Source of the DNA: Eledone cirrhosa
Taxonomy: Eukaryota
Length of the DNA stretch: 64,000 nucleotides
Assembly: GCA_964016885.1 (NCBI GenBank)
Contig: OZ024740.1
Location: 63,550,001-63,614,000, forward strand
Reading direction: 5' to 3'
Positions within the stretch are counted from its first letter, which is position 1; each line of letters starts with the position of its first letter. The notes below the pieces were generated by a model, which had not been told where the DNA came from, searched no databases, and worked only from the letters and a program-made list of their open reading frames with translations. Shown here in pieces: positions 24,901 to 26,622 of the stretch. The translations under genes and the position numbers were made by a program.

Positions 24901-25094
24901 AAAAATAATTTGAAGATAATTATAAAGAATTAATATCTAGTAACATATATATACATACAGATGCATATCAATGCTAGCAAATATATAGGTTTTGTCTTAG
25001 TAACTTTGTGGTTCAATGCATGGGGTTGCAGAACAATAATATGAGAGACGTAAAATAAGAAAATTATAAAATTAACTTACTTACTAAAATATCA

Positions 25095-25174
25095 CTTCCA
25101 ACTAATTAATTTCTGAAATGGAATAAATATATTTTCCGAAGAAAACATAGAGAATCATTTCGTCGTCAGGGAAG
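25095..25174 (-). ncRNA. Type I hammerhead (array copy 1)
   Basis: Reverse complement of 25716-25795 with one change in stem III. Confidence 0.8.
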
Positions 25175-25715
25175 ACTATTCTCATCTAAGTATCCAGGCA
25201 AAGCGTGGACTCTGGAAACTTATTCAAAAATAATTCAGTGGATAGAAAATAGCAAAGCGTGGACTGAATTCCTAGCCATTGAGAAAATCACTGCCTCTGC
25301 GTCGGTGGCAAATTCAAAAAGAATCAATCACGTGACATCGAGGTCAATCAGTGGAAAGTGGTTTGCTAATAAGACAGCGGCCTGCTTGCTACCATAGCAG
25401 CAGTCTTGGCCAATATTGCTCGACAAATAATTTGGAGATAATTATAAAGAATTAATATCTAGTAACATATATATACATACAGATGCATATCAATGCTAGC
25501 AAATATATAGGTTTTGTCTTAGTAACTTTGTGGTTCAATGCATGGGGTTGCAGAACAATAATATGAGAGACGTAAAATTTGCCACTGACGCAGAGGCAGT
25601 GATTTTCTCAATGGCTAGGAATTCAGTCCACGCTTTGCTATTTTCTATCCACTGAATTATTTTTGAATAAGTTTCCAGAGTCCACGCTTTGCCTGGATAC
25701 TTAGATGAGAATAGT

Positions 25716-25795
25716 CTTCCCTGACGACGAAATGATTCTCTATGTTTTCTTCGGAAAATATATTTATTCCATTTCAGAAACTAATTAGTTGGAAG
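25716..25795 (+). ncRNA. Type I hammerhead (array copy 2)
   Basis: CTTCC-CTGACGA-CGAAATG..TATGTTTTC(TTCG)GAAAATATA..CATTTCA-GAAA-CTAATTAG-TT-GGAAG. Confidence 0.82.
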
Positions 25796-26238
25796 TGATA
25801 TTTTAGTAAGTAAGTTAATTTTATAATTTTCTTATTTTACGTCTCTCATATTATTTTTCTGCAACCCCATTCATTGAACCACAAAGTTACTAAGACAAAA
25901 CCTATATATTTGCTAGCATTGATATGCATCTGTATGTATATATATGTTACTAGATATTAATTCTTTATAATTATCTCCAAATTATTTGTCGAGCAATATT
26001 GGCCAAGACTGCTGCTATGGTAGCAGGCAGGCCGCTGTCTTATTAGCAAACCACTTTCCACTGATTGACCTCGATGTCACGTGATTGATTCTTTTTGAAT
26101 TTGCCACCGACGCAGAGGCAGTGATTTTTCTCAATGGCTAGGAATTCAGTCCACGCTTTGCTATTTTCTATCCACTGAATTATTTTTGAATAAGTTTCCA
26201 GAGTCCACGCTTTGCCTGGATACTTAGATGAGAATAGT

Positions 26239-26318
26239 CTTCCCTGACGACGAAATGATTCTCTATGTTTTCTTCGGAAAATATATTTATTCCATTTCAG
26301 AAATTAATTAGTTGGAAG
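26239..26318 (+). ncRNA. Type I hammerhead (array copy 3)
   Basis: Tandem copy 523 bp downstream of copy 2. Confidence 0.8.
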
Positions 26319-26622
26319 TGATATTTTAGTAAGTAAGTTAATTTTATAATTTTCTTATTTTACGTCTCTCATATATATATATATATATATATATATATAT
26401 ATATATATATATATATATATATATATATATATATATATATATATATATATATATATATATATATATATATATATATATATATATATATATATATATTTAT
26501 ACACTCTATATAATTTTTGCTCTACATTGCTGAATACAATAAATGTAATCTGAGTTTTTTTTTAAATGAGGCTTGTTTGCATAATTGCAAACGAATCGAG
26601 TGTTATTATTAATATTCGAAAA

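What the first reader, a model, noticed from the sequence alone, without database searches (positions are those of the whole stretch)
24903..26372. Young ~522 bp tandem-plus-inverted hammerhead array predicted to release a 523 nt monomer RNA
Seen: three near-identical hammerheads with stem I CTTCC/GGAAG, a cUUCGg-capped stem II and palindromic stem III ACTAATTAGT. Two are in direct tandem, with predicted cuts after ~25790 and ~26313. No ORF of 60 aa or more; the inversion junction shows AAT microhomology; the 3' end fuses to (TA)n. Known: retrozymes are tandem non-coding hammerhead units that yield circular RNAs. Inference: a retrozyme whose partial tandem copies reflect reverse transcription around a circular or multimeric RNA. 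The position flanking the core at stem II (C/A) is mismatched and the site is GUU, so activity may be low.
Basis: partly seen in the sequence, partly recalled or inferred. Interest (0 to 1): 0.85.

Follow-up and report, generated by a model that had tools for sequence, protein, structure and literature searches.

The report
Penelope-mobilised hammerhead retrozyme insertion
This is a recent, three-copy insertion of a 523-base non-coding repeat that carries a hammerhead ribozyme motif and occurs in many variants in at least three species; it is likely a retrozyme copied from a circular or multi-unit RNA by a Penelope-type retrotransposon, a known kind of animal genome parasite whose self-cleavage here is predicted but untested.

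Summary
A direct arm (25576-26374) and an inverted arm (25578 to 24903) meet 5' end to 5' end. All three junctions have 3-4 nt microhomology, and the right end sits in (TA)65. Public runs show a variable repeat family in three coded organisms, with contigs running on round the 522-nt unit. The same (TA)n-fused 3' end recurs in 17 contigs, and no exit into an ORF is listed (24 of 629 loose ends shown). The hammerhead reads as Penelope-type: an extra base after A9, G10.1-C11.1 intact, plus an extra A before G12. Partial tandem, 5' inverted copy and (TA)n target are published Penelope insertion marks. Best reading: a non-LTR retrozyme, a known class, mobilised by Penelope machinery (0.72). Cleavage, transcription and a circular RNA are untested; in long contexts the active fold is predicted to lose by 4-9 kcal/mol. 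New member of a known kind.

The parts
24028..24906 (+). Flank/target: decayed 3' end of a Penelope-like element (GIY-YIG remnant, own Penelope-type hammerhead at 24654, tail running into the first codons of its own ORF)
   Evidence: 74% identical to a second copy at 19400-20270; translations; only longer homolog P0001, 37% identity, has a CxxCxxC linker before the GIY-YIG-like motif (Neptune-like by the motif described in PMC8557442); other copies continue past 24905-6 into further ORF-start letters (loose ends)
24903..24906 (.). Left junction: 4-nt microhomology AAAT shared by the old element and the unit; no target-site duplication seen
   Evidence: loose ends at 24905 and 24906
24903..25578 (-). 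Inverted arm, 676 nt: unit positions 44-523 then 1-197 (numbering from the cut site)
25095..25174 (-). Hammerhead 1 (stem III ATTAATTAGT); predicted cut between 25100 and 25099
25576..25578 (.). Inversion junction, 5' ends of both arms joined through AAT microhomology
25576..26374 (+). Direct arm, 799 nt: unit positions 308-523, 1-523, 1-61
25716..25795 (+). Hammerhead 2 (family-type stem III ACTAATTAGT); extra C 25728 after A9, G10.1 25729 paired to C11.1 25775, extra A 25776; predicted cut after 25790
25791..26313 (+). Cut-to-cut monomer, 523 nt, 34% G+C, non-coding, no tRNA or Pol III box found
26239..26318 (+). Hammerhead 3 (stem III ATTAATTAGT); predicted cut after 26313
26371..26501 (.). 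(TA)65 target microsatellite; its first 4 nt (ATAT) also match unit positions 58-61
   Evidence: the same end followed by (AT)n in 17 contigs of run X1

Best explanation
The locus is a young insertion of about three copies of a 523-nt ORF-less unit with a type I hammerhead motif, from a repeat family seen in at least three organisms, and it is likely a non-LTR retrozyme that a Penelope-type reverse transcriptase copied from a circular or multi-unit RNA into a (TA)n tract. Proposed steps: (1, inferred) tandem copies are transcribed and cut at GUU, probably as a double hammerhead through the palindromic stem III, and monomers are ligated into circles. (2, inferred) A Penelope GIY-YIG endonuclease nicks (TA)n; the DNA end pairs with the AUAU at unit positions 58-61 and primes copying that runs more than once round the unit, through intact cut sites. 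(3, inferred) The other DNA end primes a second cDNA at position 197 through AAAT, giving the inverted arm, and the two cDNAs join at AAT. Shown: geometry, microhomologies, target, recurring 3' end, family status. Not shown: transcription, cleavage, circle, the identity of the helper element.
For: Geometry and three microhomologies. Partial tandem, adjacent inverted 5'-truncated copy and (TA)n bias are described as Penelope-like insertion features (PMC8557442 passages). Family: 12-62 variant contigs per listed site within the unit in X1; coverage in 29 of 29 bins for X1, X4 and X16 and 26 of 29 for X7. The joint '25424 to 24903, goes back 522' occurs in X1, X4 and X7 (organisms A, B, E). X4 record 12 bridges the cut site and record 11 bridges the 3'-end site into further unit sequence. 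The 3' end at position 61 followed by (AT)n recurs in 17 X1 contigs. Internal control: the neighbouring old Penelope end shows a strong loose end into its ORF start (98 contigs in X1; 2880 reads in X16), and the unit shows none among the rows listed. No coding remnant. Variants at paired hammerhead positions keep or improve pairing in 5 of 6 listed cases, including an unphased A-U to G-C pair in helix II. The extra base after A9, G10.1-C11.1 and palindromic stem III match the Penelope hammerhead features in PMC4209133. The double-hammerhead fold is predicted 5.8 kcal/mol better than two single ones. Only 7 differences over about 1475 nt, 6 of them in one copy only.
Against: No similarity beyond shuffles between the unit and the adjacent Penelope ends or the rest of the window, so the helper is unidentified. 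Only 24 of 629 loose ends and 40 of 193 variant rows were shown, so a minority link to an ORF is not excluded. That none of the 9 listed variants in 25095-25175 hits the 13 core positions is not significant (about 0.2 by chance; my arithmetic). Stem I probability falls from 0.67 in a 111-nt piece to 0.01 or less in all 10 longer linear contexts tested; the active fold costs 3.7-4.5 kcal/mol there, 8.2 in the circle and 9.1 as a double hammerhead in the whole direct arm. The circle's folding z of -3.8 was matched (-3.5 or lower) by 2 of 18 control strands. The rare U15.2 is shared by hammerheads 1 and 3 but not 2, which a single identical circle does not explain without later conversion or reversion. 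No target-site duplication. In the bioRxiv study only 1 of 9 predicted retrozyme dimers cleaved in vitro.
Confidence: 0.72

Rival explanations
1. The unit is the pseudo-LTR of an autonomous Penelope-like element; this locus is several 5'-truncated 3' ends of that element inserted in partial tandem with an inverted copy.
For: Penelope-type hammerhead details; the published tandem/inverted geometry; Penelope remnants beside it; the bioRxiv paper finds 24 of 57 Xenopus retrozyme families homologous to known elements, 21 of those 22 elements being Penelope-like.
Against: Independent truncations would not give one fixed period; the unit joins itself in register three times here. No endonuclease tail or ORF start in the unit, unlike the old element next door. 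No strong ORF-ward loose end listed, and the cut site and 3'-end site are bridged into unit sequence in organism B.
Confidence: 0.15
2. A hammerhead-bearing minisatellite derived from a pseudo-LTR that no longer goes through RNA: the tandem arose by unequal crossover and the inversion by a DNA template switch at this locus.
For: Local amplification of a pseudo-LTR is the scenario discussed in the bioRxiv paper. The shared rare U15.2 and the 249-nt 100% identity between the arms suggest DNA-level exchange. The active fold is predicted to be disfavoured.
Against: The inverted arm holds two unit copies that share G at positions 66 and 81 where the direct arm has T, so it is not a simple copy of the direct arm. 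The same (TA)n-fused 3' end recurs in 17 contigs. The insertion interrupts the tail of an older element.
Confidence: 0.09
3. Misassembly or a fold-back artefact of reads from a high-copy repeat.
For: The locus-specific inversion and left junctions were not among the joints or pieces listed; such structures are known to trouble assemblies.
Against: The flanks are unrelated to each other (a fold-back would mirror them); the arms differ in phase and by private substitutions; all three junctions have microhomology. The RAD run probably cannot bridge the inversion junction, which contains an AATT site, the motif at 5 of its 6 listed read ends.
Confidence: 0.04

Closest known systems
Metazoan non-LTR retrozymes (Cervera and de la Pena 2020, PMC7229834; Li, Clavereau and Pollet, bioRxiv 10.64898/2026.07.22.740005)
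   Same: Non-coding tandem unit with a type I hammerhead in every unit, G+C under 50%, weak palindromic helix III, dimers to multimers, co-occurring with Penelope-like elements. 523 nt lies within the 51-972 bp range of the bioRxiv survey. Axolotl HHR_Amex2 also has a mismatch at the base of helix II and cleaves well as a dimer.
   Different: Longer than the 150-450 bp of the 2020 paper. Helix II is long and two-part (6 bp, internal loop, 9-bp UUCG hairpin) rather than 4 bp with the usual loop. The locus has an inverted arm ('inverted' does not occur in the main text of PMC7229834) and no target-site duplication. Expression and circle are not shown here.
Pseudo-LTRs and hammerheads of endonuclease-bearing Penelope-like elements (PMC4209133, PMC8557442)
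   Same: Extra base between A9 and 10.1, G10.1-C11.1, long helix II, 5-bp helix I, palindromic helix III; partial tandem with an inverted 5' copy; microsatellite target; 3' end extending past the ribozyme.
   Different: No reverse transcriptase or endonuclease ORF in or attached to the unit as far as shown; a further extra A between C11.1 and G12, absent from the neighbouring Penelope hammerheads at 20030 and 24654.
Non-autonomous Chlamys elements such as MRC1 (PMC8557442, passage)
   Same: Non-autonomous, multicopy head-to-tail insertions made by Penelope-type machinery.
   Different: Green algae; Chlamys mostly lack hammerheads and resemble their helper at the 3' end, whereas no helper similarity was found here within the window.
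Plant LTR retrozymes (PMC7761336 passages)
   Same: Ribozyme-processed non-coding retroelement with a proposed circular intermediate.
   Different: Type III hammerheads, LTRs, primer-binding site, polypurine tract and 4-bp target duplications, none seen here.

Membership tests
Non-LTR retrozyme | Tandem repeat with a complete type I hammerhead in at least two consecutive units | tested here: met
   Hammerheads at 25721 and 26244, 523 nt apart
Non-LTR retrozyme | Non-coding; no LTR-type architecture | tested here: met
   Longest ATG ORF 27 aa on either strand of the circularised unit; the array is unit repeats only
Non-LTR retrozyme | Unit of a few hundred bases, G+C below 50% | tested here: met
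   523 nt, 34% G+C; published range 51-972 bp
Non-LTR retrozyme | Multi-copy family in the genome | tested here: met
   Dozens of variant contigs per site, (TA)n-fused end in 17 contigs, three organisms; copy number not obtainable
Non-LTR retrozyme | Self-cleavage of the RNA | not testable with these tools
   Folding only: forms in a short piece, disfavoured in long contexts
Non-LTR retrozyme | Expression as linear and circular monomer RNA | not testable with these tools
   No RNA run was available to lay
Non-LTR retrozyme | Target-site duplication ('when present' in PMC7229834) | tested here: not met
   None seen; ends show microhomology and a (TA)n target, which can hide one. Optional feature in the source paper
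Pseudo-LTR of an autonomous Penelope-like element | Flanks a reverse transcriptase plus GIY-YIG ORF | tested here: inconclusive
   Not at this locus; no ORF-ward loose end among 24 of 629 shown; no genome to search
Pseudo-LTR of an autonomous Penelope-like element | Partial tandem, inverted 5' copy, microsatellite target | tested here: met
   features from PMC8557442
Pseudo-LTR of an autonomous Penelope-like element | Hammerhead with extra base after A9, G10.1-C11.1 and palindromic helix III | tested here: met
   features from PMC4209133; plus an additional extra A before G12
tRNA-derived SINE | tRNA-like head with Pol III A and B boxes | tested here: not met
   ARAGORN 0 genes in the window; no A or B box pattern in the unit

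The most novel reading that the evidence does not exclude
A retrozyme family with its own hammerhead variant (two-part helix II and a conserved C.A pair under the core), whose circle folds to hide stem I, and whose insertions carry a direct footprint of the copying step: a fixed priming site 58-61 nt past the re-ligated cut that pairs with nicked (TA)n, more-than-unit cDNA and a second primed, inverted cDNA. A genome-wide catalogue of its ends would then show that Penelope-type enzymes roll round a ribozyme-made RNA circle, rather than the arrays growing by local crossover.
Probability: 0.3. Interest if true: 0.55.

Novelty: new member of a known kind. Interest (0 to 1): 0.33.

Why it matters
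The class is known, but how animal retrozymes are mobilised is argued mainly from co-occurrence and sequence similarity. The 2020 review says the repeats show no motif that names the helper, and the 2026 preprint states that it has limited empirical evidence on the life cycle. A young insertion with readable ends, a recurring (TA)n-fused 3' end and a Penelope-type inversion is the kind of locus that can separate retrotransposition of a circle from local tandem growth. It does not show a new kind of system.

Tried and rejected
Of 18 listed runs, 4 were laid (X1, X4, X7, X16), on 725 nt (24700-25424), one unit plus the left flank. Read pile-up ends in X16 at 24763, 24766, 25065, 25104 and 25314 were rejected as biological: 5 of the 6 listed ends lie at AATT, likely the RAD enzyme site. 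For the same reason I set aside the 732 mixed loose ends at 25065 and the X16 strand-switch joints. Depth was not used as copy number. Rfam: nothing at gathering; 7 weak unrelated matches at E 0.45-9.9. A 26-letter hammerhead pattern found 0 matches in metagenome and viral contigs. Pfam did not recognise the endonuclease remnant; the longer-protein search gave 1 hit among 29 candidates. Unit versus old Penelope ends: scores 12-21 against shuffle maxima 17-22, no homology; nhmmer against the rest of the window gave none and the visible BLAST rows were AT-repeat noise. The circle folding z-score was downgraded after controls. The antisense 95-codon open stretch was rejected as a gene (no ATG start, no family). 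Literature searches for precedent of the extra A before G12 (listings only) and for twin priming in Penelope (listing only) gave nothing to the point. Earlier scan findings: none by place or sequence.

Full report
Observation. The window is AT-rich animal-like DNA full of (TA)n and retroelement debris. That it resembles cephalopod DNA is a recalled impression, not tested. Between 24903 and 26374 lies an array of one unit. Numbering from the predicted cut, the direct arm (25576-26374) holds positions 308-523, 1-523 and 1-61. The inverted arm (25578 down to 24903) holds 44-523 and 1-197. Each arm carries the hammerhead: stem I CTTCC/GGAAG, core CTGACGA, a long helix II with an internal loop and a UUCG hairpin, GAAA, a palindromic stem III and GUU. 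A descriptor scan found these 3 sites in the window and 1 site in 15 shuffles of it. The two direct cuts are 523 nt apart. The copies differ at 7 places over about 1475 nt, so the insertion is young. Rfam does not recognise the motif.

Ends. The arms meet 5' end to 5' end through AAT. The right end fuses to (TA)65 with ATAT shared between unit and tract. The left end joins, through AAAT, the tail of an older Penelope-like element, and no target-site duplication is visible. That older element has a GIY-YIG-like remnant and its own hammerhead at 24654; it has sister copies at 19400-20270 and about 17800-18403. Its one longer homolog, P0001, carries a CxxCxxC linker as described for Neptune-type elements. 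It shows no homology to the unit, so it is the landing site, not a proven helper.

Family. One unit plus the left flank (24700-25424) was laid on 4 of the 18 listed runs. The unit is covered in organisms A, B and E and in a RAD run of organism A. The joint that closes the unit at 522 nt occurs in all three contig sets. On its own this only shows continuity at an arbitrary point, but in organism B contigs also bridge the cut site (record 12) and the 3'-end site (record 11). In X1, 17 contigs stop at position 61 and go on as (AT)n, the same end as here. The old element gives a useful control: it shows a strong loose end into its ORF start (98 contigs in X1, 2880 reads in X16), whereas the unit shows none among the 24 of 629 loose ends listed. 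The pile-ups of read ends in the RAD run are at AATT sites and were set aside. The inversion junction of this locus was not among the 15 joints listed.

Ribozyme. The family has C at 15.2 (about 100% of depth in X1, X4 and X7; 621 of 641 reads in X16), so the T in two hammerheads here is a rare variant. Five of six listed variants at paired positions keep or improve pairing, among them A-U to G-C in helix II (unphased); one breaks a pair. None of the 9 listed variants in the motif hits the core, but that alone is not significant (about 0.2). The C/A opposition under the core is untouched in the 40 of 193 variant rows and 12 of 13 indel rows shown, and X1 and X7 list no G>C change at all, so it looks like a family trait. 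It is better read as the extra base after A9 with G10.1-C11.1 intact, as described for Penelope hammerheads (PMC4209133), plus one more extra A. A mismatch at the base of helix II is tolerated in an axolotl retrozyme that cleaves well as a dimer (PMC7229834). Against activity: stem I has probability 0.67 in a 111-nt piece but 0.01 or less in 10 of 10 longer contexts; the active fold costs 8.2 kcal/mol in the circle; the double hammerhead is 5.8 better than two singles but 9.1 above the free fold. These are equilibrium predictions. They could equally mean a circle protected from self-cleavage, as discussed for plant and some mussel circles. The circle folds better than its shuffles (z -3.8; antisense +0.4), but 2 of 18 control strands did about as well, so I give this little weight. 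That GUU is a weaker site than GUC is recalled, not from a call.

Mechanism. A doubly cleaved linear monomer would end at the cut. This insertion reads through three intact cut sites and ends 61 nt beyond one, so the template was likely a circle or an uncut multimer; template jumping between monomers is not excluded. Priming at nicked (TA)n through the AUAU at 58-61, and a second priming at 197 through AAAT, account for all three junctions. If one RNA served both primings it spanned about 3.0 units with 110 nt skipped. This resembles twin priming of LINE-1 (recalled; one search found no paper applying it to Penelope). Partial tandems, an adjacent inverted 5'-truncated copy and microsatellite targets are the published marks of Penelope-like insertions (PMC8557442), and a circular template for them was proposed in PMC4209133. 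One detail is unexplained: the rare U15.2 is in hammerheads 1 and 3 but not 2. That needs a mixed multimer template, or later conversion between the inverted arms, which are 100% identical over 249 nt around it. Whether this locus itself yields a monomer depends on a promoter upstream of 25716. An E-box and a CCAAT match lie at unit positions 288 and 208 (matches only), upstream of where the direct arm begins (308), so this copy may be silent even if the family is active.

Comparison. It meets the testable defining features of non-LTR retrozymes and works like a non-autonomous Penelope derivative, as the 2026 preprint argues for the class. Cleavage and circular RNA could not be tested. I found no paper on this family: searches for octopus with hammerhead ribozyme, retrozyme with cephalopod and non-autonomous Penelope with hammerhead gave none, and an octopus repeat annotation has 0 occurrences of ribozyme or retrozyme. 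These searches rest on my untested host guess, and the library lacks most subscription papers and repeat databases, where the family may sit under another name.

Papers seen. bioRxiv 10.64898/2026.07.22.740005: parts 1-3 of 5 (abstract to discussion); its supplements are closed and list retrozyme families that could bear on novelty. PMC7229834: passages and parts 2-4 of 6; supplement not opened. PMC4209133: abstract, results, discussion; supplement not opened. PMC8557442, PMC13282606 and PMC7761336: passages only. All others: search listings only. An earlier scan note (e1-7881736) reports the same geometry for a ribozyme-free unit in another genome; it is unchecked and not counted as support.

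Verdict. Real feature; new member of a known kind; retrozyme mobilised by Penelope machinery 0.72, ordinary pseudo-LTR 0.15, DNA-level satellite 0.09, artefact 0.04. My estimate that the family makes a circular RNA is about 0.55, and that this locus does about 0.25. Interest 0.33.

Noticed in passing
window 17800-18403, 19400-20270, 24028-24906 (+): Three decayed 3' ends of one Penelope-like family. Each has a Penelope-type hammerhead (18154 with a broken core, 20030, 24654) and a tail that runs into the first 9-27 codons of what looks like its own ORF start (MTLP..), the first two ending at (TA)n. This also points to a more-than-unit template.
   Followed up: partly
window 11926-12468 (+), 15696-16193 (-), 42284-42820 (-): Open stretches resembling GIY-YIG endonuclease ends of further Penelope-like families (motifs recalled; translations); no similarity to the 523-nt unit found.
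   Followed up: partly
window 3358-6825 (+): Nearly intact LINE with endonuclease and reverse transcriptase motifs, RTE-like by recall, broken by one stop near 5467.
   Followed up: no
window 7520-8788 (-) and 33927-37406 (-): Fragments of another non-LTR retrotransposon family with reverse transcriptase and zinc-knuckle/endonuclease-like motifs, partly duplicated (identification recalled).
   Followed up: no
window 26620-26800, 22250-22325, about 30510-30900 and 41966-42232: Dispersed SINE-like repeat of about 150-180 nt (79% inverted match between the first two); ARAGORN finds no tRNA.
   Followed up: no
window 9386-10233 (-): Mariner/Tc1-like transposase fragments (motif recalled).
   Followed up: no
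window 25791-26313, unit positions 113-168, 360 and 414: A long predicted hairpin at 113-168, and a 12-nt motif present twice (positions 360 and 414) upstream of the hammerhead; roles unknown.
   Followed up: no
run X4, loose end at 25353 (unit position about 269): Two contigs leave the unit here into a G-rich unrelated sequence (54 nt, agreement 0.97); could be a 5' truncation junction or a link to another element.
   Followed up: no
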